Shown here: piece by piece, positions 18,916 through 45,250 of the stretch
How positions within the stretch are numbered: the stretch's first letter is position 1
Layout of the letters: every line of letters begins with the position of its first letter
DNA from: Escherichia phage SelmaRatti
Direction: 5' to 3' (one strand)
Sequence record: MZ501103
Length of the DNA stretch: 64,000 nt
The notes under the pieces: model-generated
Database searches by the model: none
The model's input: only the letters and a program-made list of their open reading frames with translations
Told to the model about the DNA's origin: nothing
Translations under genes and position numbers: made by a program

Positions 18916-20742
18916 TTATTTAAGATTTAAGTGTTTTACTCTACCAAGCACTTCTTTTTGTTTCCCAGAATTGAAAGGCCTACTGCCCGGGGATCCCAGG
19001 TACCCGCAAACCCTACGTGTAACCTCTATTTCTTCAGATCCACAACCCGGACATACAAACCCACGTTCAGAAGCAACAGATTCACCCATATATCCGCAGT
19101 TGAAACACTCATCAATTGGTATATTAACACCAATATAATGGCTACATTCTAGCCCCTTATCCACCACATACTCAAGAGCTTTGTGGAACTTTTTCATTTG
19201 AGGTAGTTCCACAAATGATATATTACCACCATTAGCTATTTTGGTAAAATGAGCTTCGTACTCAAATTTAGTATCTGGGGCTACTTTCTCTCTTACGTCC
19301 AAATGGTGACTATTAGTAAGATAGCCTTTATCTGTTAACCAAGAATACTCTGGGAACCTACGTTCTAGTAATTTATTAAAACGATTACATAGAGACTCAC
19401 TAGGAGTAGCATACAAGCTAAACCCAAGATTAGTCTCATTAGCTTTAACTTCGCAACGATTTTTTAGGTGAGTGAGAACTTCCTCTGTAAATTCAATACA
19501 ATCCCTATGGGTTTGTGGTAGACCAAACATTATTTGGCACATCTCATAGACCCCAATGTATCCAAGAGATACAGAAGATCTACCCTCAAAAATAGGCCAT
19601 ACATACTCTTCCCCATCTAAACGCACACCAAAACCCCCGTGCATATAAAGAATAGGGGCTTGTTTAGCCTTCACTTTCTTAAGTCTATTTAAGAAAAAAT
19701 CATGAGCTTCAAAAGCCTCATCCACATATTTGTCCAGAATATCCCAGAAATCTTCAAAAACCCCATCTGCCTCAGCAGCAACCATAGGTAGATTAATAGA
19801 CACTACACCTAAATTATTGCGCCCTGCAATTTCTCCGGAGGGGATAGCAGATAAAAAGCTACGACAACCCATAGGTGCTTTAAAATCACCAGTAACAGCT
19901 ACAACTTTCTCGTAACTTAAATAGTCCGGGTACATACGGGTAGCAGAACACTCAAGTGCTAGCTGTTTTATATCGTAGTTAGGGTCGCCTGGATTTTTAT
20001 TTAACCCTTCTTTAACTGAGAATACTAGTTTAGGGAAGATAGGGGTTGACTCAGCAGCACCTAAACCTTTAATACGGTTTTGGAGGATGGCTTTCTGAAT
20101 CATCCTTTCCTCCCACCCCTGTCCTAGCCCAAAGCCAAGCGTAACAAAAGGAGTCTGTCCATTAGAGTTAAATAATGAATTAGTTTCATACTCTAGGGCT
20201 TGGAATGCGTCATAACACTCTTTTTCAGTAAGTTCAGTAGCATATACAGCAGCTTTCCTTTCATCCTTGAGCCAACGTAGACCACGACCCAGATGTTTAT
20301 TGTAAGACTTTCTGACATACGGGGCTAGAACCTCATCGATACGATCAATAGAGGTGCCACCATACTGAGCACCAGATACTTGGGCAATAATCTGAGCAGT
20401 GATTGCACATGCAGTAGTTATGGATTTAGGAGTTTCAATATTTGCATTACCAATTTTAGTACCATTCTTCAGCATGCTACCAAGGTCTACTAAGCAACAG
20501 TTAGTGTACCCCTGTGCTCTGTAATCCATATCATGAATGTGTATCTTACCTAGATTATGGGCGTCTAACAGGTGTTTAGGTAACTCTTGCGATACTAAAT
20601 ACTTGTTAACTTCCCCAGCTAATAAGTCTCTTTGAGTATGGAACATCTCACTAGGTTTATTAGCATTATTATGCTGTAAATCCTTATCCGCAGTTAGAGT
20701 GAGCAGACCTTTGCAATTCTCAATTAATTCATTCTCTGTCAT
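18916..20742 (-). CDS. nrdD: anaerobic ribonucleoside-triphosphate reductase
   Basis: C-terminal Cys cluster CFNCGY...CPGCG and glycyl-radical motif RRVCGYLG; 608 aa. Confidence 0.85.
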   Translation of the reverse strand: MTENELIENCKGLLTLTADKDLQHNNANKPSEMFHTQRDLLAGEVNKYLVSQELPKHLLDAHNLGKIHIHDMDYRAQGYTNCCLVDLGSMLKNGTKIGNANIETPKSITTACAITAQIIAQVSGAQYGGTSIDRIDEVLAPYVRKSYNKHLGRGLRWLKDERKAAVYATELTEKECYDAFQALEYETNSLFNSNGQTPFVTLGFGLGQGWEERMIQKAILQNRIKGLGAAESTPIFPKLVFSVKEGLNKNPGDPNYDIKQLALECSATRMYPDYLSYEKVVAVTGDFKAPMGCRSFLSAIPSGEIAGRNNLGVVSINLPMVAAEADGVFEDFWDILDKYVDEAFEAHDFFLNRLKKVKAKQAPILYMHGGFGVRLDGEEYVWPIFEGRSSVSLGYIGVYEMCQIMFGLPQTHRDCIEFTEEVLTHLKNRCEVKANETNLGFSLYATPSESLCNRFNKLLERRFPEYSWLTDKGYLTNSHHLDVREKVAPDTKFEYEAHFTKIANGGNISFVELPQMKKFHKALEYVVDKGLECSHYIGVNIPIDECFNCGYMGESVASERGFVCPGCGSEEIEVTRRVCGYLGSPGSRPFNSGKQKEVLGRVKHLNLK

Positions 20743-22872: not shown

Positions 22873-22906
22873 AGGCCTGGGTATGAAAATGCTCGGGCCT
22901 TTTCTA
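22873..22906 (+). terminator. hairpin terminator upstream of nrdA
   Basis: GC-rich imperfect stem then ttttct; shares cgggccttttctat with the 44216 terminator. Confidence 0.4.
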
Positions 22907-22987
22907 TCAGAAAATTTTATTTGCCAAATGACTGAGAATAAAGTAAACTATTTCCTAAATCCTGATAACTATAAAAAGGAAAGCCAA

Positions 22988-25900
22988 ATGAGCCATCGCA
23001 TTGAAAAAGTAATTAAACGTGACGGTACTGTAGAAGACTTTGCTCCTGAAAAACTCAATGGTTGGGCAGAGTATGGTTGCAAAACAGTTGATGTAAGTTG
23101 GTCAGCCATTACTATGGCTGCTCAAAAAACCCTACCTAAAGGGGTTGTAGATTCCGACACTCTTATGGACGCATTAATTAAAGCTGCTGAAAGTCTTATC
23201 AAAGATAACCCAGCATACGATGTGCCAGCAAAGGAATTACGTCTTGCGCAAATGCGTAAGCGCCTTTATGACTCTTTCGAACCACCTTCTCTACGCTTCT
23301 TCCATGACCACATGGTTAGCGTAGGTACATGGGAAGACATGAGTGCATGGATTACCGATGAGCAATTTGAAGCTCTGAATCAGGTTATCGACCATGATCG
23401 TGACCGTCTTTTTACTAGTGGTGGGCTGAAGCAGTTCTTTGATAAGTATTCACGTCGTAACATAGCCACTGGTGAAATTTACGAAACCCCTCAATTCGCC
23501 TATATGGGTATGGCAATGGCGATGTTATCTCAACCTAACTGGACAATTCTAGATGCAATCGATCTCTACAATGCAATGTCGCTCCACAAGATCAACGTTC
23601 CTACGCCGCCATTGGTTGGCTTGCGCTCTAGTGACCGTGGATTTGCTAGTTGCTGCCTCGTGGATTCCACTGACACATTGGATTCAATCGACACAGCAGA
23701 GCACATCGTCTTCAAAATGGTCGCAGCCAGAGCGGGAATCGGGTATCATCTTGAAAGCAGATCAATTGCTGATCCGGTGCGAAATGGGGCATTCCCGCAT
23801 TCCGGAAAACTGCCATATTATCGACACATTGACCGCTCAGTAAAGGCCAATACTCAGCAAACTCGTGGTGGTTCTGCTACAGTGTCTTATCCATACTTCG
23901 ACCCTGAAATCATTCAATTGATGCAGGTTAAGCAACAACGTGCTACAGATGAGAATAAAATCGATAAGATGGATTATTCTCTGAGCTTTAACAATCTTTT
24001 GTTAAAACGTTATCTTAAAAACGAAGATATTACGCTAATGTCATACTTCTATGCTCCAGAAGTTCATGAAGCGTTTTATAGTGATGACGAGGCTAAATTT
24101 GAAGAAATCTACGTGGCAGCGGAGAAACGTGTGGCATCTCTTACAAAAATCGACCACGAAGGAAAAACAGTTCCAGCAGCTCCTAAAGTCTCTGCAAAAG
24201 AAATCCTAGATACTTGGCTACGTATCCGAATGGAAACAGGACGTATGTACGCTCACCACATCGGGGAATCTAATCGTCACGGTAACTTTCTTGATCCAAT
24301 CCGTATGACTAACCTTTGTGTAGCTCCAGAAACAAAAATTTTAACCAAAAATGGTAACATAGAGATTATTGATTTAGTTGGTAAAGAAGTAGAGATTTGG
24401 AACGGGCAAGAATGGTCAACAGTTATCCCTGCTAAAACTGGGGAAGCTCAGGAGTTGATGAAAATCACATTCTCTGATGGATCTACTATTGAATCTACTC
24501 TTTATCATAAGTTCTACCACCAGCCCAAATATGTAAGAGAGGATCGTAGTACCTCCTTCAAACAGGGTCTAGAAGAGGTACGAGCAGTAGACTTGCAAGT
24601 AGGTATGAAAATGCCTAAATTTAGTAATCCTATTGTAGATCATGGAAATATGGTACTAAAATCTCCTTATACTAACGGTTTCTTCACTGGAGATGGAACT
24701 TATGGAAGACATGGAGAACCTAAGCTGTACTTCTATGAAAAAGGAGGCAAACTACCATTAGTGGATAAAATTGACGCAAAGATTCAGGGAAGTGGATTAC
24801 TGGACAGCACAGGTAGACTGAGTTATATTGTTAAGTCTGATTTAATGCCGAAGTATTTTGTACCTGGCCCAGAATACACTATTGATAGCCGTATCAAATG
24901 GTTAGAGGGATATTTAGATGCAGATGGCTGCATACAGAAAAATGGCACAACCCCTAGTATTGTGGTTGCTTCGGCAGAGCCTGATTTTCTAAGTAAAGTG
25001 AAGGATTTGTTACTAGAATTGGGGATTACTAGCAAGATTATTTTAGGACGCCAAGAAGGTGACTACGAGTTACCAGATGGTACTGGTAGTAGTAGTAAAC
25101 TATACCACTGCAAGGAGACTAGTAGGCTTATTGTGGGGAGTAGTGGCTTCTGGAAACTTAAAGATTTAGGACTCTCTTTGGATAAAGAGAAACTCTTAAA
25201 CCTAACACGCCCCAATAGAGACGCAACCCGTTTTGTAACTGTAACTAACGTTGAGTTTACTGGTCGTATTAGTGATACCTATTGCTTTACAGAACCTAAA
25301 TTAAACTTGGGTGTATTTAATGGCATTTTAGCTGGTAACTGTGTAGAGATTACTCAGCCTACACGCCCGTTCCACCACATCACAGAGCTGTATAAGACAA
25401 AAGAGCAGCTTGATCAAATGAAGCCGGAGGATATTGGTGAAGTATCTCTGTGTAACTTAGGTGGTGTTGTACTTGGACGCATGGAATCTCTGGCTGAGTG
25501 GGAAAAAACTTGCTACATCCTTCTGAAATTCGTTGATACAATTATTGAAATTCAGGATTATCCGTTCCCAACTATGGAATATACGGCTAAGAAACGTCGT
25601 AATGTTGGTATTGGCCTGATGAACGCAGCAGGTGCAATGGCAGCAGAAGGTCTGGCTTATGAAGGTATTGAAGCCCGTAACTGGATTCACCGTGAGGCTG
25701 AAAAACTGTCTTACTTCCTGCATAAAGCCTCTGTACGCCTAGCTAAAGAACAGGGCGCATGTGAGTGGTTTGATCGTACTAAACCATCTAAAGGAATTCT
25801 GGTAATCGACACTTACAAGAAAACTGTTGATGAACTGGTATCCGTAGGTCTAGAAATGGATTGGGAATCTCTGCGTGCAGATATTCTGAAATACGGTATG

Positions 25901-26344
25901 CGTAACTCTGTTCTGACTGCGCAGATGCCTGGAGAAAGCTCTTCTGTACTATTGGGTGTTACCAACTCAATTGAGCCACCTCGTAAGATTGTATCTATCA
26001 AGGGTAGTGCAGTGAATAAAGTAATTGCAATTGCTCCAGGTGCAACCGATTGGGATACTCTCATGAGCTATAAACTGGCCTATGATATTGATCGCACTGA
26101 GTGGATCAAGTGGAACGCCGTTTACCAAAAATTCTTGAGTCAGTCATCAAGTTTCCAGATGTATTATGATTACTCTAAATTCGAGAATGAAATCATCCCT
26201 GGCCCAGTAGTAGTTCGTGACTTTATGACTGCGGTTAAGTATGGTATAAAAACCTGGTATTATGCTAACTTTAACACTGCGAATGGTGGAGGAGCTGGTG
26301 AAGAGGCGGCAACAGGTTGTGCATCAGGCGGTTGTCAGTTATAA
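22988..26344 (+). CDS. nrdA: ribonucleotide reductase large subunit (class Ia) with in-frame intein
   Basis: MSHRIEKVIKRDG matches NrdA N-terminus; C-terminal CxxC tail; RBS aaaaggaaag; upstream part of the 22883 ORF is a terminator/leader. Confidence 0.9.
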   Translation: MSHRIEKVIKRDGTVEDFAPEKLNGWAEYGCKTVDVSWSAITMAAQKTLPKGVVDSDTLMDALIKAAESLIKDNPAYDVPAKELRLAQMRKRLYDSFEPPSLRFFHDHMVSVGTWEDMSAWITDEQFEALNQVIDHDRDRLFTSGGLKQFFDKYSRRNIATGEIYETPQFAYMGMAMAMLSQPNWTILDAIDLYNAMSLHKINVPTPPLVGLRSSDRGFASCCLVDSTDTLDSIDTAEHIVFKMVAARAGIGYHLESRSIADPVRNGAFPHSGKLPYYRHIDRSVKANTQQTRGGSATVSYPYFDPEIIQLMQVKQQRATDENKIDKMDYSLSFNNLLLKRYLKNEDITLMSYFYAPEVHEAFYSDDEAKFEEIYVAAEKRVASLTKIDHEGKTVPAAPKVSAKEILDTWLRIRMETGRMYAHHIGESNRHGNFLDPIRMTNLCVAPETKILTKNGNIEIIDLVGKEVEIWNGQEWSTVIPAKTGEAQELMKITFSDGSTIESTLYHKFYHQPKYVREDRSTSFKQGLEEVRAVDLQVGMKMPKFSNPIVDHGNMVLKSPYTNGFFTGDGTYGRHGEPKLYFYEKGGKLPLVDKIDAKIQGSGLLDSTGRLSYIVKSDLMPKYFVPGPEYTIDSRIKWLEGYLDADGCIQKNGTTPSIVVASAEPDFLSKVKDLLLELGITSKIILGRQEGDYELPDGTGSSSKLYHCKETSRLIVGSSGFWKLKDLGLSLDKEKLLNLTRPNRDATRFVTVTNVEFTGRISDTYCFTEPKLNLGVFNGILAGNCVEITQPTRPFHHITELYKTKEQLDQMKPEDIGEVSLCNLGGVVLGRMESLAEWEKTCYILLKFVDTIIEIQDYPFPTMEYTAKKRRNVGIGLMNAAGAMAAEGLAYEGIEARNWIHREAEKLSYFLHKASVRLAKEQGACEWFDRTKPSKGILVIDTYKKTVDELVSVGLEMDWESLRADILKYGMRNSVLTAQMPGESSSVLLGVTNSIEPPRKIVSIKGSAVNKVIAIAPGATDWDTLMSYKLAYDIDRTEWIKWNAVYQKFLSQSSSFQMYYDYSKFENEIIPGPVVVRDFMTAVKYGIKTWYYANFNTANGGGAGEEAATGCASGGCQL
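24317..25339 (+). mobile_element. LAGLIDADG intein in NrdA (341 aa) at the catalytic Cys
   Basis: Exteins join to MTNL|CVEITQP (conserved NLCxEI); intein starts CVAPETKIL, ends ...GILAGN|C; LEGYLDADGCIQ motif. Confidence 0.8.
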
Positions 26345-39578: not shown

Positions 39579-39608
39579 CTCCTCCAAGCAGAAATTTTAA
39601 AAATGTAC

Positions 39609-39638
39609 TTGCCTTTTGCTTTAAATTTCTGATATAAT
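39609..39638 (+). promoter_or_regulatory. sigma70-type early promoter
   Basis: TTGCCT-18-TATAAT. Confidence 0.5.
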
Positions 39639-39649
39639 AGTTATATAAA

Positions 39650-39943
39650 TTGATGAGAGGAATCAGAATGTCAAAACGTGTTACAGCAACTGGTATTGAA
39701 AGTGTAATCTGCAAATCCTGGGAAGACAGGGAAGGTGAGATTGAATGGCTTTATTTCTATGATGTAGAACTTCTACCGGAAGTTAAAGCTAAATGTATTG
39801 AAGCTGGTATGGCTCCTGATGCTACTGCTGATGTTGAGATTATCATGAATAAGCTAGAGGGTCTGGTAATCACTGTTAGTGATGAGGGCGAAGAAGTCTT
39901 CGAACTTCCGTTCTCCTTAACTGTCACTCCTAAGTTCGACTAA
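39650..39943 (+). CDS. hypothetical protein (97 aa)
   Basis: Promoter 39609-39638, RBS gagagg. Confidence 0.45.
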   Translation: MMRGIRMSKRVTATGIESVICKSWEDREGEIEWLYFYDVELLPEVKAKCIEAGMAPDATADVEIIMNKLEGLVITVSDEGEEVFELPFSLTVTPKFD

Positions 39944-41043: not shown

Positions 41044-41409
41044 TTGCAAATGCAATTATCAAGCAAGATTCAAGGTTATTTCGGTCATGTGACAATGGAG
41101 TTCGCTATCTCTAAAGGTTGGGATTTCGAGCAAGATCTAGCTGAGTTCTACAAAGATATTGATCTGAACGTACCGTATATGGGACTTTCTACTGGTCAGG
41201 AGATCACAGAAGCCGATGTATTCAAGGCAAGTCAAGGTGAGATAACACCTAGTTTTGCCACTTTTTGGAGTGGCTTCACAATTAAAGAAGAAGCTCCAGA
41301 TGATGATGTATTTATGCAAAGCATGCACTCTGGGAGTTCTGATATGTTATTTGTTAAAGATGTACGACATATCCAAGAAGTGGTAAAAACGTATTTGCAA
41401 AATGCTTAA
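41044..41409 (+). CDS. hypothetical protein (121 aa)
   Basis: ORF with RBS aaggaa. Confidence 0.45.
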   Translation: MQMQLSSKIQGYFGHVTMEFAISKGWDFEQDLAEFYKDIDLNVPYMGLSTGQEITEADVFKASQGEITPSFATFWSGFTIKEEAPDDDVFMQSMHSGSSDMLFVKDVRHIQEVVKTYLQNA

Positions 41410-41423
41410 TTTCTTGTTATAAT
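41395..41423 (+). promoter_or_regulatory. sigma70-type early promoter driving unannotated RNA region
   Basis: TTGCAA-17-TATAAT then tataaattgatg. Confidence 0.5.
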
Positions 41424-41756
41424 ATTTATATAAATTGATGCGAAAATAGCTGCCTAGATACCAGGTGTATGACGTCTACACTAGCAGAGCTACCGAAAAA
41501 GAGATCCTCAGGATAAACGTCGTAGCAAAATTAGTCTGGTATCCATCAATTTAGTTCACTAAGGTATTAGCTCGACCTAGGACTGGCTGCCAAAAAGCAC
41601 GACCCCTACGACTCGGGAGAAGTTCTAGATTAGTCCACTAGATTCAGCGGCAACTGAATAGTGTATCGGGTTTGTGAAGAGCGGCTATCCTCTACTGGCT
41701 AATGTATGAGGTTAGTACGCACACCGAGCTAATAGCCTTAGTAAACTAAAGAATTT

Positions 41757-42154: not shown

Positions 42155-42628
42155 AATCTTGAAGTATGCCGGAATCGGTAGACGGGGCTTCCTAAAGGGC
42201 GTAAGGGGAACATCCACTCCTCATAAGATACCCGAAAACGAGGCTGAGATAAATGGTCTATCTCGTGAAGGTTCAAGTCCTTCTGCTTCTTGATACCTCT
42301 ATGGCTCAAAGTGTAACGGTGCTATTTGATGCTCTTAGTAAGACTTTCCCGACATGCGTTCGGGGGTAAGCTGCTAAGACTAGAGTAGAAGAGTTTCGGA
42401 GAGCCGCCACAATTGAAAATTCGTACTCGTCTTGAGCTGCGTGCAATAGGAGATAACTTGATTAGTATTCTAGAACATGCTAATTGAGGAAGGTTTCTCT
42501 AACCCTGCGAGTTTTCAATTGTGGCTATATCATAATTGGTTAATGATCCTGATTGTGAATCAGGCCTTCCAAGCCTCGCTGAGTAGGGTTCGATTCCCTC
42601 TAGCAGCTCCAACTTTAAGGAAACATTT

Positions 42629-42850
42629 ATGCACGTTTTTGAGTTTAGTGATAAAAGTAACAATAAACGAGTTATTGTTATTGGAGAAACATACCGAGCT
42701 TATGAACAAACTGACGGCTCTGTTATCTTGAATGATGAGAAAGCTGGTTTCAGTTTCTATCCTGACGAACCTTATGAAGAGTTTCGTACTAAGTTTCTTT
42801 TACCAGACTGGCTAGCAGTAGCCGAGCAACGAGAATCCAAAGATGGCTGA
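42629..42850 (+). CDS. hypothetical protein (73 aa)
   Basis: RBS aaggaaa; first ORF after tRNA cluster. Confidence 0.45.
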   Translation: MHVFEFSDKSNNKRVIVIGETYRAYEQTDGSVILNDEKAGFSFYPDEPYEEFRTKFLLPDWLAVAEQRESKDG

Positions 42851-43365
42851 TAATCTAAAATTAAGGTTGACAAACAAAAGAAATACGTTGAGGTTGAATT
42901 AGGCGAATAACGCTTAAAGCTAACTTTCGAGTTTCTTCAGCAGTTGGCTATGACAGTTATGACTGATAAGTCTCCTGTTATTGAAAAAGAAATCCCGTTG
43001 AAATAATGGGATCATCGCTCTTAAAGCATTGCCGGAGATGCAACGGTCTTGTAAACCGTGGAACGGGCGTGACAGCAGGAAGTAGACTGCAACTCCATGC
43101 TATCCAGGAGTATAAATGTAGAAGCTAAGACTTTAGATAGCCATTGTCTTAGCGTGAGCAATCACGTAGTTGCAACAGACCAGGGGGATCGCAACGTTAA
43201 AATCAAAGCTCCTGTACTTATTAAACTTAATGGGACTATCAATCCACAAGCCGGACTACGAGCGATTATCGGGTATTCACTTAATAAGCAAGCCTGCCTT
43301 CCAGTTTTTATCTTGCTTCTGGGTTAACAAAAAGCTGAGCCAAATTCTAACATCAGGGAGATCTA

Positions 43366-43734
43366 ATGAAAGCGTATCAAAACCTTAAATCTGGCGTAAT
43401 TAACATTGTTCATAACAATCAGATCATTCAACTATGTTCTAAAGATGGTGAACTTAAACAGAAAGTTCTAGTCGAAGATCTAGAAGGTATCACACCTCAC
43501 TTTGACCCTGAGGCCTTTCGCATTGTAGATGTGGAAGTGATTCCTCAAATCGAGGGAGGTCAGCACCTAAATGTCAATGTGTTAAGTCGTGATCAGCTTT
43601 TGGATGCACAGAAACATCCTGAAAAATACCCTCAATTAACTATCCGTGTTTCAGGGTATGCTGTACGTTTTAACTCACTGACGCGTGAACAGCAGAACGA
43701 CGTTATTAGTCGTACATTTACTCAGGCGATGTAA
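43366..43734 (+). CDS. autonomous glycyl-radical cofactor (GrcA/YfiD-like)
   Basis: [11 protein letters not shown]...[24 protein letters not shown]...RTF matches the GrcA/PFL glycyl-radical signature. Confidence 0.8.
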
Positions 43735-43815
43735 TGGGGCTTGGATACGGTTTCTACGAACTACGTAAGGTAGTCGAGCAAACTCCATTTATCTCCCAAG
43801 TTTTAGGAGAAATGT

Positions 43816-44061
43816 GTGGATCGAGCATTAAGACGTCATCACCGGCAACGTGTAAAGAACAACCGCAAGAAGTATTGGACAGTCTTCCCACATGAAGAAA
43901 GCCCTAAGCGGTTAGGTATTATCACTACTACTCCTTGCATCTGTTCTTGTTGGATGTGCGGGAATCCTCGCAAACACTTTAAGAATAGTAAAGCAGGGAT
44001 GAAAACCTCGGAGATTAGGAAAATGGTGGATGGTAAGCTTTGGCGTGATCATGTGAAATAG
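43816..44061 (+). CDS. hypothetical Cys-rich small protein (GTG start)
   Basis: RBS aggag 6 nt before GTG; CICSCWMCGNPRKHF. Confidence 0.35.
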   Translation: MDRALRRHHRQRVKNNRKKYWTVFPHEESPKRLGIITTTPCICSCWMCGNPRKHFKNSKAGMKTSEIRKMVDGKLWRDHVK

Positions 44062-44215
44062 TTTGCTCTTTTTCCTGATGATGATGTATCATGTATGGCA
44101 GTGAAGCCTTGAGCCTTGAGCTTTCGCTTTAATGCATTGTGAAATTTTTATAGATTCACAATGACATTAAGGCCACGCTCCACCGAAAGGTGATAATGGC
44201 AAGAGATTTGGATGA

Positions 44216-44246
44216 GGCTCGACAGGAAACTGTCGGGCCTTTTCTA
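44216..44246 (+). terminator. rho-independent terminator
   Basis: cgacag-gaaa-ctgtcg extended stem then ttttct. Confidence 0.5.
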
Positions 44247-44320
44247 TATACAGGTAAATAATTTATGTATAACAAAATTCATCCACATTAGGTTAATTTA
44301 AAAGACTTAATGGAGGTAAT

Positions 44321-44668
44321 ATGAGCCGTACTTATCGTAGACAATCTGGTGATCAGTGGTGGAAGTCTAAAGCTAATTACACCCAGGGATATACTTTCCT
44401 CAAAGCAAGTGGCTACTACATTCGTGTTATTTATGCTAAATCCTGGGATGAGGTAGAACAGGAAATGGAAGAAGCAACCATTAGTAATGAGAAAAAGGAT
44501 GGTTATAACTGGAATTCTGTTAGTAAGAATGTTAAGTGGCATTCTAATAAAATGGTTCGTCAAGGAAATCGTCAAGAACTCCACCGCGTGATGAAAGATC
44601 CAGAAAATTATGACTATAATCGCGATCATGACATGCGTAAGCGTGGATTATGGTGGTGCTATGATTGA
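44321..44668 (+). CDS. hypothetical protein (115 aa)
   Basis: RBS ggaggtaat; follows terminator. Confidence 0.4.
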   Translation: MSRTYRRQSGDQWWKSKANYTQGYTFLKASGYYIRVIYAKSWDEVEQEMEEATISNEKKDGYNWNSVSKNVKWHSNKMVRQGNRQELHRVMKDPENYDYNRDHDMRKRGLWWCYD

Positions 44669-45182
44669 GAACAAAATGGAAGAATGGAAAATCATCGAGA
44701 ATTTTCCATCTTATGAGGTTTCTAGCTTAGGTAGGGTTAGAAACTTAAAAACAGGAAAAATCCGAAAACCCGTAGTACATCACAGTGGATACTTACAACT
44801 AAACCTAGTAAAGAAAGATGGGTCTAAAAAGACTGTGTATATCCATAGGGTAGTGGCCTTTGCTTTCTGCAATCCTCCTAAAAACTGGAAAGAATTAACT
44901 GTCAATCATAAAGATGGAAATAAGGAAAATGTAGAGGCTACTAACCTAGAGTGGATTAGTATGTCAGATAATTTAAAACACACAAGACTTACTGGTTTAA
45001 ATCATATAGATGGTGAAATGAACGGTAGGGCTTTATTAACAGCAGAACAGGTTCTTTGGATACGGAATGTTTATATACCCAGGGACAAGGAATTTGGGCA
45101 GAAAGCCCTTGCAGAAAAATTCAATGTTAGCAAAGCCACTATAAGCCATATAATAACACGTAGGACTTGGACAGAAATTTAA
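44661..45182 (+). CDS. HNH homing endonuclease with NUMOD4-like N-terminus
   Basis: WKIIENFPSYEVSSLGRVRN then HRVVAFAF...VNHKDGNKENV.NLEW; start placed at ATGA overlap. Confidence 0.65.
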   Translation: MIENKMEEWKIIENFPSYEVSSLGRVRNLKTGKIRKPVVHHSGYLQLNLVKKDGSKKTVYIHRVVAFAFCNPPKNWKELTVNHKDGNKENVEATNLEWISMSDNLKHTRLTGLNHIDGEMNGRALLTAEQVLWIRNVYIPRDKEFGQKALAEKFNVSKATISHIITRRTWTEI

Positions 45183-45191
45183 ATAATTCAT

Positions 45192-45220
45192 TTGCTAAAC
45201 CTCTCTTTTCTTGCTATAAT
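45192..45220 (+). promoter_or_regulatory. sigma70-type early promoter
   Basis: TTGCTA-17-TATAAT. Confidence 0.55.
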
Positions 45221-45250
45221 ATGTTTATAAATTGATGAGAGAGGTTTGAA

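What the first reader, a model, noticed from the sequence alone, without database searches (positions are those of the whole stretch)
42851..43734. GrcA-like glycyl-radical spare-part protein preceded by a 515-nt untranslated region
The ORF matches the GrcA/YfiD signature closely (…[19 protein letters not shown]…), an auxiliary gene for repairing oxygen-damaged glycyl-radical enzymes; the phage also encodes NrdD. The long upstream region has no convincing ORF and contains local hairpins, suggesting a regulatory leader or ncRNA.
Basis: partly seen in the sequence, partly recalled or inferred. Interest (0 to 1): 0.55.

Follow-up and report, generated by a model that had tools for sequence, protein, structure and literature searches.

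The report
Phage GrcA gene behind composite leader
A T5-like phage carries an ordinary, already well-known GrcA "spare-part" gene, and the 515 bases in front of it are not one leader but a broken small gene, half a tRNA gene left by a deletion, and a roughly 230-base folded RNA with a pseudoknot that no database or annotation describes.

Summary
The window is a T5-like phage (Demerecviridae, closest to Epseptimavirus). The ORF at 43366-43734 is a true GrcA/YfiD homologue. It matches Pfam Gly_radical at 3.5e-18 and E. coli GrcA at 1.5e-29, keeps RVSGYAV with Gly97, and is 50/62 identical to the PflB C-terminus. Homologues occur in 1,583 phage records, many already annotated as GrcA, so the gene is known.

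The 515-nt "leader" is composite:
- 42843-43007 is a small ORF (BF23 trn2.18) broken by a 1-nt deletion and a stop codon.
- 43017-43067 is the first 51 nt of tRNA-Thr, cut by a roughly 1-kb deletion that also removed the nearest upstream promoter.
- 43091-43323 is a structured RNA.
- 43326-43365 is the grcA-proximal ribosome-binding segment.

The RNA has a 6-bp pseudoknot, several hairpins and a long-range helix. All are supported by compensatory changes: 17 of 40 pairs vary on both sides, against 1-3 in shifted controls. Homologues lie in tRNA clusters of other Demerecviridae in front of unrelated genes. T5 and BF23 have grcA without it, and Rfam has no match.

It is therefore most likely an independent small RNA module, not a grcA-specific regulator. 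Its function is unknown.

The parts
41395..41423 (+). Nearest recognisable upstream promoter (TTGCAA-17-TATAAT with TG). It is homologous to the BF23-annotated promoter P13b and is the inferred start of the long tRNA/small-RNA/mRNA transcript that includes grcA.
   Evidence: 10/12 match; BF23 P13b aligns to 41385-41440 at 93%. That it drives grcA is inferred.
42629..42850 (+). Intact 73-aa ORF, the homologue of BF23 ORF trn2.17 and oselot_122. It marks the upstream boundary of the finding.
   Evidence: 91% to BF23 trn2.17.
42843..43007 (+). Pseudogene of the 54-aa ORF trn2.18/oselot_123. It has a 1-nt deletion in a G run (42865-42866, GG instead of GGG) that leads to a stop at 42900-42902, plus an independent TAA (42908-42910) in the original frame.
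   Evidence: Alignment; translations; 92% to BF23 trn2.18.
43017..43067 (+). The 5' 51 nt of tRNA-Thr(UGU): acceptor 5' strand, D arm, anticodon arm and start of the T stem. The 3' 24 nt are missing, so it is non-functional.
   Evidence: Alignments (same allele as the L036 tRNA-Thr up to 43067). ARAGORN and the Rfam tRNA model find no tRNA here.
43055..43067 (.). Deletion junction, with CGGG-type microhomology. Relative to oselot about 1,061 nt are missing: the tRNA-Thr 3' part, the P11-type promoter, two ORFs, tRNA-Ile, tRNA-Met, oselot_126 and 65 nt of spacer.
   Evidence: No other phage record matched here spans this junction; every record listed and 22 matches in two or three pieces.
43091..43323 (+). 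Structured non-coding RNA of about 233 nt, made of two modules: a 5' pseudoknot domain (43091-43195) and a 3' domain closed by a long-range helix (43212-43323).
   Evidence: Covariation; homologues; CM hit at 43091-43154 with 93.7 bits; no Rfam family.
43099..43141 (+). Pseudoknot: 43099-43104 (GCTATC) pairs with 43136-43141 (GATAGC), which lies in the loop of hairpin H1.
   Evidence: helix 1: 6 pairs, 4 with changes on both sides, 98.3% of cells paired. Variants are GCTATC/GATAGC, GCCGTC/GACGGT and GACGGC/GCCGTC.
43124..43153 (+). Hairpin H1: 43124-43131 pairs with 43146-43153, with a 14-nt loop.
   Evidence: helix 2: 8 pairs, 5 with changes on both sides. Stems are GCTAAGAC, GCTAGAAC, GCTAGGGC and GTACTGG.
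43154..43195 (+). Hairpins H2 (43154-43157/43162-43165) and H3 (43169-43173/43191-43195).
   Evidence: helices 3 and 4: 100% paired. H2 is GTGA/TCAC in the window, GTCTGA/TCAGAC in KKP_3831 and GTTTGG/CCAGAC in DU_PP_V.
43216..43288 (+). Long-range helix PL (43216-43223 with 43281-43288). It encloses hairpin Hc (43231-43234/43242-43245), whose 7-nt loop CTATCAA (43235-43241) is conserved.
   Evidence: helices 5 and 6; on a plain MAFFT alignment of the sal2-type allele, the 14-bp version has 5 pairs changed on both sides and is 100% paired.
43300..43323 (+). Terminal hairpin: 43300-43304 pairs with 43319-43323. It sits at the position of the GC-rich UUCG hairpin or terminator in KKP_3831, DU_PP_V and My1.
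   Evidence: helix 4 (U-G to C-G change in two sequences).
43326..43365 (+). grcA-proximal segment carrying the Shine-Dalgarno sequence GGGAG (43356-43360), 5 nt before the ATG. It is shared with Tequintavirus-type loci that lack the RNA.
   Evidence: matches to 43326-43365 or 43340-43365 only; sequence.
43366..43734 (+). grcA: a 122-aa autonomous glycyl-radical cofactor homologue with radical glycine Gly97 in RVSGYAV.
43816..44061 (+). 81-aa ORF that aligns at the DNA level to the first 211 nt of BF23 ORF trn2.22. It is the last cistron of the unit.
   Evidence: 98% over 211 nt.
44214..44241 (+). Intrinsic terminator-like hairpin followed by a T run, at the position of BF23 ter2. It is followed by a P10a-like promoter (44240-44300).
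18916..20742 (-).
   Evidence: NRDD 9.7e-158; Gly_radical 2.2e-13.

Best explanation
grcA (43366-43734) encodes a PFL-type glycyl-radical spare-part protein. By homology it would be activated by the host PFL activase and would replace the oxygen-cleaved C-terminus of host pyruvate formate-lyase.

It is an internal cistron of a long early transcript of the phage tRNA region. The nearest recognisable promoter is at about 41.4 kb and the terminator at about 44.2 kb. It is not a gene with its own 515-nt 5' UTR.

The 515 nt are a mosaic:
- a dead copy of a 54-aa gene;
- the 5' two-thirds of tRNA-Thr, left by a microhomology-flanked deletion of about 1 kb;
- a roughly 233-nt structured RNA (43091-43323) with a pseudoknot, four local hairpins and a long-range helix;
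- the 40-nt ribosome-binding segment of grcA.

The structured RNA is a self-contained, modular, non-coding RNA of Demerecviridae tRNA clusters. It is probably released from the polycistronic precursor as a stable small RNA, like the "stable RNAs of unknown function" annotated in BF23. It happens to sit in front of grcA in the Epseptimavirus lineage.

Shown: homology, gene decay, the deletion, the RNA helices, and context variability. Inferred: transcription from the upstream promoter, processing to a stable RNA, trans rather than cis action, and PFL rescue.
For: GrcA:
- Pfam Gly_radical 3.5e-18.
- E. coli GrcA 1.5e-29 and PflB C-terminus 2.6e-27, with RVSGYAV identical and 50/62 identities.
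- 51% identity over the full length to the T4-type vs.6/GrcA gene, and 1,583 phage records with a match.
- YfiD and T4 Y06I are the validated spare parts for PFL (PMC8683613).

Composite leader:
- Frameshift plus stop codon in the trn2.18 homologue.
- tRNA-Thr truncated at position 51, with no tRNA called there.
- Relatives carry about 620-1,060 nt more at this point, with ORFs, tRNA-Ile and tRNA-Met.
- The BF23 P11 promoter lies in the missing part, and P13b, ter2 and P10a map to 41385-41440, 44214-44241 and 44240-44300.

Structured RNA:
- 95.6% of cells paired, against 31-39% in shifted controls.
- 17 of 40 pairs changed on both sides, against 1-3 in shifted controls; 0 of 500 shuffles reach the observed values.
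- A plain MAFFT alignment gives 5 double changes in a 14-bp helix that is 100% paired.
- G-U pairs lie on the + strand.

Not coding:
- The 76-aa ORF at 43097-43327 stops after 20 codons in KKP_3831 and after 6 in DU_PP_V.
- It loses its start in UTK0009 and differs from the sal2 type by indels that are not multiples of three.

Not grcA-specific:
- It lies upstream of unrelated proteins.
- In My1 it ends at a terminator followed by a BF23-P11-like promoter.
- It is absent from BF23 and T5-type loci.
- Its halves occur separately: the 5' module alone in Klebsiella phages and the 3' module alone in SB13 and AKFV33.
Against: - There are no transcript data, so a discrete stable RNA has not been shown.
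- In every context a protein gene follows within about 40-100 nt on the same strand, so a generic cis role (mRNA stabiliser or translation platform) is not excluded.
- The main covariation alignment (A5) was hand-fitted to the structure and rests on about 6 independent sequence types. The shuffle control ignores relatedness.
- Single-sequence folding energy is unremarkable (z = -0.09).
- In UTK0009 a 75-nt deletion removes the pseudoknot and H1, so the 5' module is dispensable for at least one isolate.
- Promoter assignments come from the BF23 record and consensus scans, not from this genome.
- The 1-nt deletion lies in a G run and could be a sequencing error, although the second lesion argues for real decay.
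Confidence: 0.7

Rival explanations
1. The conserved RNA is a cis-acting 5' leader that controls or stabilises expression of grcA, for example by sequestering the Shine-Dalgarno sequence, by protecting the 5' end from RNases, or as a ligand-sensing riboswitch.
For: - It lies directly upstream of grcA on the same strand in at least 148 records.
- A gene follows it in every context.
- CUCCUG (43208-43213) could pair either with the internal CAGGAG (43105-43110) or with the grcA SD region CAGGGAG (43354-43360) (sequence; MFE).
- K/D/M homologues end in a stable hairpin, which resembles an expression platform.
Against: - The downstream genes are unrelated: grcA, an 89-aa protein, My1_064 and a Klebsiella 90-aa protein.
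- My1 has a terminator and then a full promoter between the RNA and the next gene.
- grcA in T5 and BF23 and in other lineages lacks the RNA.
- No Rfam riboswitch or leader matches.
- The CUCCUG/CAGGAG pairing is not kept in the sal2, KKP_3831 and DU_PP_V sequences.
Confidence: 0.15
2. The region encodes a small protein. The 76-aa ORF at 43097-43327 is annotated as "hypothetical protein" in some relatives.
For: - An ATG ORF of 76 aa is present.
- Records such as 118970_sal2 (ORF56), LVR16A, S124 and Roth49 annotate a CDS starting at the homologous ATG.
Against: - The lengths are 76, 59 and 42 aa, with frame-breaking indels.
- Stop codons appear after 20 codons in KKP_3831 and 6 codons in DU_PP_V.
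- The start codon is deleted in UTK0009.
- There is no Pfam hit.
- The substitutions come in base-pair-preserving doublets rather than as synonymous changes.
- The SD-like AGGAAG lies 14 nt from the ATG.
Confidence: 0.04
3. The region is a functionless spacer or recombination scar, and the hairpins are chance features of an A+T-rich mosaic region.
For: - Folding z-scores are not significant.
- The region is mosaic, with breakpoints at about 43212/43218, 43326 and 43340.
- It is partly deleted in UTK0009.
- The first 215 nt really are decayed remnants.
Against: - Seventeen pairs have compensatory double changes and 95.6% of cells are paired across six helices, including a pseudoknot. Shifted registers give 31-39% paired and 1-3 double changes.
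- A plain MAFFT alignment gives independent confirmation.
- The element is conserved across two Demerecviridae subfamilies and the genus Sugarlandvirus.
- The mosaic breakpoints coincide with the structural domain boundaries.
Confidence: 0.05
4. The conserved structure acts at the DNA level, as a single-stranded DNA hairpin, a recombination or homing-endonuclease target, or a nick site, rather than as RNA.
For: - The tRNA region of T5-like phages is rich in homing endonucleases and rearrangements: HNH genes lie at 44610-45182 and in relatives.
- The element is mobile between contexts.
Against: - G-U (G-T) pairs occur on the + strand only; they would be A-C mismatches on the other strand.
- The element always lies on the transcribed strand of tRNA and ORF clusters.
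- The pseudoknot and multi-helix architecture is typical of RNA.
- In My1 it is followed by an RNA terminator.
Confidence: 0.05

Closest known systems
E. coli GrcA (YfiD) and phage T4 Y06I (vs.6), the autonomous glycyl radical cofactors
   Same: - It is a small stand-alone protein (122 aa against 127 aa).
- Its C-terminal glycyl-radical domain has an identical [13 protein letters not shown] motif.
- The match to 6owr has E 1.5e-29 and covers residues 50-121.
- It is 51% identical over its full length to T4-type vs.6/GrcA genes.
- The function of the known proteins is rescue of O2-cleaved PFL after activation by PFL-AE (PMC8683613).
   Different: - The N-terminal roughly 50 residues are not aligned to E. 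coli GrcA by HMMER.
- It is encoded inside a tRNA cluster of a T5-like siphovirus.
- No biochemical test exists for any T5-type GrcA.
E. coli pyruvate formate-lyase PflB, C-terminal glycyl-radical segment (residues 698-759)
   Same: 50 of 62 residues are identical, including the C-terminal ...RTFTQxM end and the equivalent of Gly734.
   Different: The phage protein lacks the roughly 700-residue catalytic barrel. It is a fragment-sized mimic, not an enzyme.
BF23/T5 tRNA-region "stable RNAs with unknown functions" (RNA I, RNA III, RNA IV, RNA 2H, RNA X) and "tRNA-like RNAs" (RNA1-3), as annotated in AJ604530
   Same: - It lies on the same strand, in the same tRNA/small-ORF cluster, and is non-coding.
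- It lies within about 0.6-1.5 kb of the homologues of RNA I, RNA III, RNA1 and RNA 2H that the window also carries.
- In Klebsiella phages its 5' module is fused to an RNA1-like RNA.
   Different: - It has no sequence or CM similarity to any BF23-annotated RNA or to anything else in the 14.5-kb BF23 tRNA region.
- Accumulation as a stable RNA has not been shown for this element.
- None of these RNAs, this one included, has an Rfam family.
Phage T4 tRNA-cluster small RNAs (species 1 and 2, rnaC/rnaD)
   Same: From my own knowledge, not tested here: they are small stable RNAs of unknown function, co-transcribed and processed with a phage tRNA cluster.
   Different: No sequence comparison was made. 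The phage family is different. A pseudoknot is not, to my knowledge, a described feature of those RNAs.
Riboswitches and structured 5' leaders (Rfam cis-regulatory families)
   Same: It is a conserved multi-helix fold with a pseudoknot immediately upstream of a coding gene.
   Different: - It matches no Rfam family at E <= 10.
- The downstream genes are not functionally related.
- It is separated from the next gene by a terminator and a promoter in My1.

Membership tests
GrcA/YfiD autonomous glycyl radical cofactor | Small stand-alone protein (about 14 kDa) consisting essentially of a glycyl-radical domain | tested here: met
   The ORF is 122 aa. Pfam Gly_radical covers residues 63-103 and is the only domain found.
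GrcA/YfiD autonomous glycyl radical cofactor | PFL-type radical motif RVSGYAV with the radical glycine aligned to GrcA Gly102 and PflB Gly734 | tested here: met
   R94-V100 reads RVSGYAV. Gly97 aligns to residue 102 of 6owr and residue 734 of PflB.
GrcA/YfiD autonomous glycyl radical cofactor | Significant full-sequence homology to characterised members (E. coli YfiD, T4 Y06I) | tested here: met
   E 1.5e-29 to E. coli GrcA. It is 51% identical over residues 1-122 to T4-type vs.6/GrcA genes, at E about 1e-27.
GrcA/YfiD autonomous glycyl radical cofactor | Glycyl radical installed by PFL activase, and restoration of activity to O2-cleaved PFL | not testable with these tools
   This is known only for YfiD and Y06I (PMC8683613). 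It would need EPR and an activity assay.
   BLASTP of GrcA against the window's NrdD gives a best E of 4.4 and no alignment of the radical region. The match to the PflB C-terminus is 81% identical.
Cis-regulatory leader or riboswitch of grcA | Conserved secondary structure | tested here: met
Cis-regulatory leader or riboswitch of grcA | Consistent association with the regulated gene or a functionally related gene set | tested here: not met
   The downstream genes are unrelated, and grcA occurs without the RNA in T5, BF23 and other lineages.
Cis-regulatory leader or riboswitch of grcA | An expression platform coupled to the downstream gene (terminator/antiterminator or SD sequestration) | tested here: inconclusive
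   The terminal hairpin 43300-43323 has no T run. A possible CUCCUG-SD pairing is not conserved. The My1 terminator is followed by a promoter.
Cis-regulatory leader or riboswitch of grcA | Match to a described RNA family | tested here: not met
   Rfam 15 gives no hit at E <= 10 in 42200-43800 apart from tRNA, and none in the homologous loci.
T5/BF23 tRNA-region stable small RNAs | Non-coding, located in the tRNA cluster on the tRNA strand | tested here: met
   The ORF is not conserved.
T5/BF23 tRNA-region stable small RNAs | Homology to one of the annotated RNAs (RNA I, III, IV, 2H, X, 1-3) | tested here: not met
   BLASTN with word size 7 and CM R1 find nothing in the BF23 region L007.
T5/BF23 tRNA-region stable small RNAs | Accumulates as a discrete stable RNA in infected cells | not testable with these tools
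   No transcript data were found in the literature searched.
tRNA (the 43017-43067 segment) | Complete cloverleaf with T arm and acceptor 3' strand | tested here: not met
   Only positions 1-51 are present. ARAGORN and the Rfam tRNA model give no call there.

The most novel reading that the evidence does not exclude
The roughly 233-nt pseudoknotted RNA (43091-43323) and its relatives form a previously undescribed family of phage-encoded functional RNAs specific to Demerecviridae tRNA clusters. It would act in trans, for example as a decoy or sponge in the tRNA-centred arms race with host defence nucleases, or as a ribosome- or RNase-binding platform that uses its invariant SD-AUG-UAG linker. 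It would not be a passive spacer or a grcA leader.
Probability: 0.25. Interest if true: 0.6.

Novelty: new member of a known kind. Interest (0 to 1): 0.4.

Why it matters
The GrcA gene adds nothing new, because it is annotated in hundreds of T5- and T4-like phages. It does support the view that phages of facultative anaerobes protect host fermentative metabolism.

The useful result is negative for the leader idea and positive for a new object:
- It is a covariation-supported, pseudoknot-containing RNA of about 230 nt. It is unannotated in the records inspected, except where a spurious ORF is called over it, and it is absent from Rfam.
- It is modular and mobile among tRNA clusters of T5-like phages.
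- T5 tRNA regions are now known to hold counter-defence tRNAs (PARIS and retron papers found). The small RNAs there have been "function unknown" since they were first described. A defined fold with testable pairings gives an entry point.

The window also shows ongoing erosion of the tRNA cluster: two deletions ending inside tRNA genes and one pseudogene. This is relevant to how dispensable this region is.

Tried and rejected
- Rfam gathering search on the whole window, and E <= 10 on 42200-43800: only tRNAs. The same holds for four homologous loci.
- Single-sequence folding of 42851-43365, 43055-43365 and 43091-43325: z = -1.39, +0.58 and -0.09, so thermodynamics alone give no signal.
- Promoter and terminator scans of 42400-44400: counts equal chance. 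The only site near grcA is a weak TTAACA-18-TAACAT (9/12), not accepted as a promoter.
- The 76-aa ORF and other small ORFs in the leader: no Pfam hit and not conserved, so rejected as genes.
- A split or intron-containing tRNA-Thr: no 3' half lies downstream and no group I intron or ribozyme family matches, so it is a plain deletion.
- IMG/VR pattern AGTATGGNNNNCTATCAAC: 78 loci, and apart from the DU_PP_V (L056) and My1 (L093) contigs presumed chance matches (not inspected individually), so not used.
- Pattern CAAAGATCCCCT...TTAAAACAGAA: only DU_PP_V and My1 in IMG/VR. The single metagenome hit lies in what reads as an uninterrupted coding stretch and was judged a chance match.
- Two core patterns against 185,579 bacterial and archaeal genomes: no match.
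- CM R1 of the 5' module: it recovers only the window and DU_PP_V, it misses My1 (so it is insensitive), and it finds nothing in BF23 or T5-type loci.
- The candidate outer helix CAGGAG (43105-43110) with CUCCUG (43208-43213) and the 5' hairpin ACUCC/GGAGU: not supported in the sal2, DU_PP_V and My1 sequences, so left out of the model.
- Literature searches for T5 small RNAs, transcriptomes and T5 GrcA: nothing on this RNA.
Full report
**Identity of the window**

The region 42600-43800 matches 870 phage records. The best are Salmonella and Escherichia T5-like phages of the family Demerecviridae, genus Epseptimavirus (SE19 94.9%, oselot 92.8%). Every record listed matches in two pieces, so relatives carry extra DNA inside the stretch. 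The finding lies in the tRNA gene cluster; ARAGORN finds ten tRNAs between 37.4 and 42.6 kb, all on the + strand.

**The ORF**

The ORF at 43366-43734 (ATG start, 122 aa) has a single Pfam domain, Gly_radical (E 3.5e-18).

- Against solved structures, the best match is E. coli GrcA (6owr, E 1.5e-29, residues 50-121).
- The next best is the C-terminus of pyruvate formate-lyase (E 2.6e-27, residues 61-122 against PflB 698-759).
- The motif [13 protein letters not shown] is identical. Gly97 aligns with GrcA Gly102 and PflB Gly734. I count 50 of 62 identities with PflB in that alignment.
- tblastn finds homologues in 1,583 phage records. These include T4-type phages, where the gene is vs.6 "autonomous glycyl radical cofactor GrcA" (51% identity over the full length). 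They also include T5-type phages already annotated "putative autonomous glycyl radical cofactor GrcA".
- The known biochemistry is that E. coli YfiD and T4 Y06I, after radical installation by the PFL activase, restore O2-cleaved PFL. These two remain the only validated spare parts (PMC8683613).

The gene assignment is therefore correct and not new.

NrdD is present (18916-20742, minus strand, Pfam NRDD 9.7e-158). However, BLASTP between GrcA and that NrdD finds nothing (best E 4.4), whereas the domain is a near copy of the PFL C-terminus.

**The 515 nt are not one leader**

Alignment with oselot, SE19, 118970_sal2, SB13 and UTK0009 and with the BF23 tRNA-region record annotated in detail by its depositors (AJ604530) resolves four pieces.

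1. 42843-43007 is the homologue of a 54-aa ORF (BF23 trn2.18, oselot_123).
   - In the window a G run has lost one base (42865-42866), giving a stop at 42900-42902.
   - The original frame also carries a G-to-T change that creates TAA at 42908-42910.
   - Two independent lesions make a pseudogene more likely than a sequencing error.
2. 43017-43067 is the first 51 nt of tRNA-Thr(UGU).
   - It is the same allele as in locus L036.
   - The T arm and the acceptor 3' strand are missing, and neither ARAGORN nor the Rfam tRNA model calls it.
3. At 43055-43067 the sequence jumps to a point 302 nt upstream of grcA in relatives.
   - Oselot has 1,061 nt here, carrying the rest of tRNA-Thr, two ORFs, tRNA-Ile, tRNA-Met and another ORF.
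   - The junction shares a short CGGG motif.
   - No other phage record matched here spans the junction.
4. 43064-43365 is a block found in front of grcA at 86-99% identity in at least 148 records, mainly Epseptimavirus.

**Transcription context (inferred)**

BF23's annotated promoter P11 sits between tRNA-Thr and the next ORF, which is inside the segment deleted from the window. Its relatives in the window are at 41409-41443, 39597-39660 and 45175-45241, and none lies between 42.6 and 43.4 kb.

- The nearest upstream promoter is the P13b homologue (41385-41440), where the scan finds TTGCAA-17-TATAAT with an extended TG.
- The only strong terminator downstream is at 44214-44241, the position of BF23 ter2. 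It is followed by a P10a homologue.
- No convincing terminator lies between them.

grcA is thus best read as an internal cistron of a roughly 2.8-kb early transcript. That transcript also carries homologues of BF23 RNA 2H, several tRNAs, RNA1, RNA I and RNA III, a chimeric tRNA, the 73-aa ORF, the remnants, the structured RNA, grcA and an 81-aa ORF. This is inference from homology to an annotated relative, not a measurement.

**A structured RNA at 43091-43323**

Rfam gives nothing here at E <= 10, and folding energies are ordinary (z = -1.39, +0.58 and -0.09). The evidence comes from comparison with other phages.

A 63-nt core (43092-43154) is also present outside the grcA context:
- in 73 Klebsiella phage records, those inspected being Sugarlandvirus;
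- in Salmonella phage KKP_3831 at a second locus;
- in Pectobacterium phage DU_PP_V.

It is also found in Yersinia phiR2-01 and Obesumbacterium Ob_P, where it lies upstream of a grcA-position ORF as in the window.

Homology to KKP_3831, DU_PP_V and, more distantly, Pectobacterium My1 runs through the whole 43091-43323 stretch.

The substitutions preserve base pairs. Helices in window coordinates, with their variants:

| Helix | Window coordinates | Variants |
|---|---|---|
| Pseudoknot | 43099-43104 with 43136-43141 | GCTATC/GATAGC; Klebsiella GCCGTC/GACGGT; My1 GACGGC/GCCGTC |
| H1 | 43124-43131 with 43146-43153 | GCTAAGAC, GCTAGAAC, GCTAGGGC, GTACTGG stems |
| H2 | 43154-43157 with 43162-43165 | GTGA/TCAC; GTCTGA/TCAGAC; GTTTGG/CCAGAC |
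| H3 | 43169-43173 with 43191-43195 | GTTGC/GCAAC; GTGC/GCAC; GTGG.../...CCAC |
| PL (long-range) | 43216-43223 with 43281-43288 | see covariation results below |
| Hc | 43231-43234 with 43242-43245, loop CTATCAA | stems GGA/TCC, GAGA/TCTC, GCGG/CCGC, GGAAG/CTTTC |
| Terminal hairpin | 43300-43304 with 43319-43323 | one-sided U-G to C-G change |

Covariation results:
- On a hand-curated ten-sequence alignment (A5; unalignable interior omitted, gaps written as N), 95.6% of 272 cells pair. Registers slid by 1-3 columns give 31-39%.
- In that alignment, 17 of 40 pairs change on both sides, against 1-3 when slid. No shuffle out of 500 reaches the observed values.
- Because that alignment was fitted by hand, I repeated the test on an untouched MAFFT alignment of six sal2-type 3' domains (A9). 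The long-range helix is 14 bp there, 100% paired, with five pairs changed on both sides (for example CTTATTTATCTAATC/GATTAGATAATAAG against CTTTTCTTCTTAATC/GATTAAGAGAAAAG).
- G-U pairs fall on the + strand, the strand of the tRNAs and ORFs.

**It is not coding**

The 76-aa ORF at 43097-43327, which some records annotate as a hypothetical protein from the same ATG, fails several tests.
- It is 59 aa in 118970_sal2 and 42 aa in Roth49.
- It stops after 20 codons in KKP_3831 and after 6 in DU_PP_V.
- It has no start in My1, and loses its start through a 75-nt deletion in UTK0009.
- It differs between the window and sal2 alleles by indels that are not multiples of three.
- It has no Pfam hit.

**It is not a grcA-specific leader**

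- Downstream genes differ among contexts. They are grcA in Epseptimavirus, an 89-aa protein in KKP_3831 and DU_PP_V, an unrelated 117-aa protein in My1, and, after a fused RNA1-like RNA, a different 90-aa protein in Klebsiella phages.
- In My1 the RNA ends in a GC-rich UUCG hairpin with a T run, which the scan recognises as a terminator. This is followed by a sequence nearly identical to BF23's annotated P11/P13b promoters before the next gene.
- T5 and BF23 have grcA 13 nt after tRNA-Met. Other lineages have 23-, 274- or 417-nt spacers that share only the last 26-40 nt or the 3' half of the block.
- BLASTN and a covariance model of the 5' module find no copy in the BF23 tRNA region or elsewhere in the window.
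- The element is modular. Klebsiella phages have only the pseudoknot and H1. SB13 and AKFV33 have only the 3' domain, from about 43212/43218. The grcA-proximal 40 nt (43326-43365, with GGGAG at 43356-43360) is a separate block. The mosaic breakpoints coincide with the domain boundaries of the fold.
- Exact core patterns occur nowhere in 185,579 bacterial and archaeal genomes. In IMG/VR they occur only in six contigs of T5-like size, those identified being T5-like phages.

**Most likely mechanism**

The evidence shows a folded, strand-specific, non-coding RNA module that moves among tRNA clusters of Demerecviridae.

I infer that it is cut out of the polycistronic early transcript and persists as a small RNA, like the stable RNAs annotated in BF23. 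Four of those (RNA 2H, RNA1, RNA I, RNA III) have homologues 0.6-1.5 kb upstream in this window. Its target or partner is unknown.

A generic cis role, such as protecting or organising the 5' end of whatever message follows, cannot be excluded, because a gene always follows it. I give that reading about 0.15.

The invariant linker AGGAGUAUAAAUGUAG (43107-43122: SD-like, then AUG, then UAG) is suggestive of ribosome binding. It is not kept in DU_PP_V or My1, and I did not pursue it.

**Verdict**

- The GrcA gene is already known.
- The "leader" is mostly genomic debris plus a new, unannotated member of the poorly understood class of small RNAs in phage tRNA clusters.
- Interest is moderate. There is nothing surprising about GrcA, but the RNA fold is concrete and testable in a region now known to matter for counter-defence (papers listed).

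Noticed in passing
window 42520-42611: The 91-nt "tRNA-His" called by ARAGORN and Rfam is a chimera. Its first 48 nt equal BF23 tRNA-His (100%). Its last 59 nt equal positions 18-76 of BF23 tRNA-Gly (93%). The two parts overlap by 15 nt. Relatives have tRNA-His, tRNA-Arg, ORFs, two tRNA-Gln and sometimes tRNA-Gly in between. This is a second deletion with both ends inside tRNA genes.
   Followed up: partly
window 41565-41677, 42158-42295, 42303-42409, 42414-42519: These are homologues of BF23 RNA 2H, RNA1 (tRNA-like), RNA I and RNA III, annotated in AJ604530 as stable RNAs with unknown functions. None has an Rfam family.
   Followed up: partly
L006 2001-2230; L049-L051 about 700-930: In Klebsiella Sugarlandvirus phages, only the pseudoknot-plus-H1 module of the RNA is present. 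It is joined directly to an RNA1-like tRNA-like RNA homologous to window 42158-42295. Some records annotate a 42-aa ORF over it.
   Followed up: partly
window 22883-26344: The aerobic ribonucleotide reductase large subunit is 1,153 aa and carries a LAGLIDADG_3 domain (aa 672-758) inside the barrel domain. This suggests an intein.
   Followed up: no
window 44610-45182: A NUMOD4 + HNH_3 endonuclease ORF (190 aa) lies just downstream of the grcA transcription unit. HNH endonuclease genes are also annotated near this region in relatives.
   Followed up: no
window 43107-43122: The linker AGGAGTATAAATGTAG has an SD-like motif, 5 nt, ATG, then TAG (a start-stop). It is invariant in the Epseptimavirus sequences examined and Roth49. 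DU_PP_V has TTGTAG without the GGAG, and other Klebsiella phages have ATGGCG instead.
   Followed up: no
L004 (Salmonella phage UTK0009) about 1472-1501, equivalent to window 43093-43167: A 75-nt deletion removes the pseudoknot, H1 and H2 of the RNA but keeps H3 and the 3' domain. The 5' module is therefore dispensable in at least one isolate.
   Followed up: partly
L048 1017-1286 and L001 2758-2952: The 89-aa protein downstream of the RNA in KKP_3831 and DU_PP_V ends in ...KNEAAYLMNDQGQTVKIIH. This resembles, by eye, the C-terminus I translated by hand from the 64-aa ORF upstream of the RNA in oselot (...ENEVAYVMNQNGKTVSVYH). It may be a shared small-protein family flanking the element.
   Followed up: no
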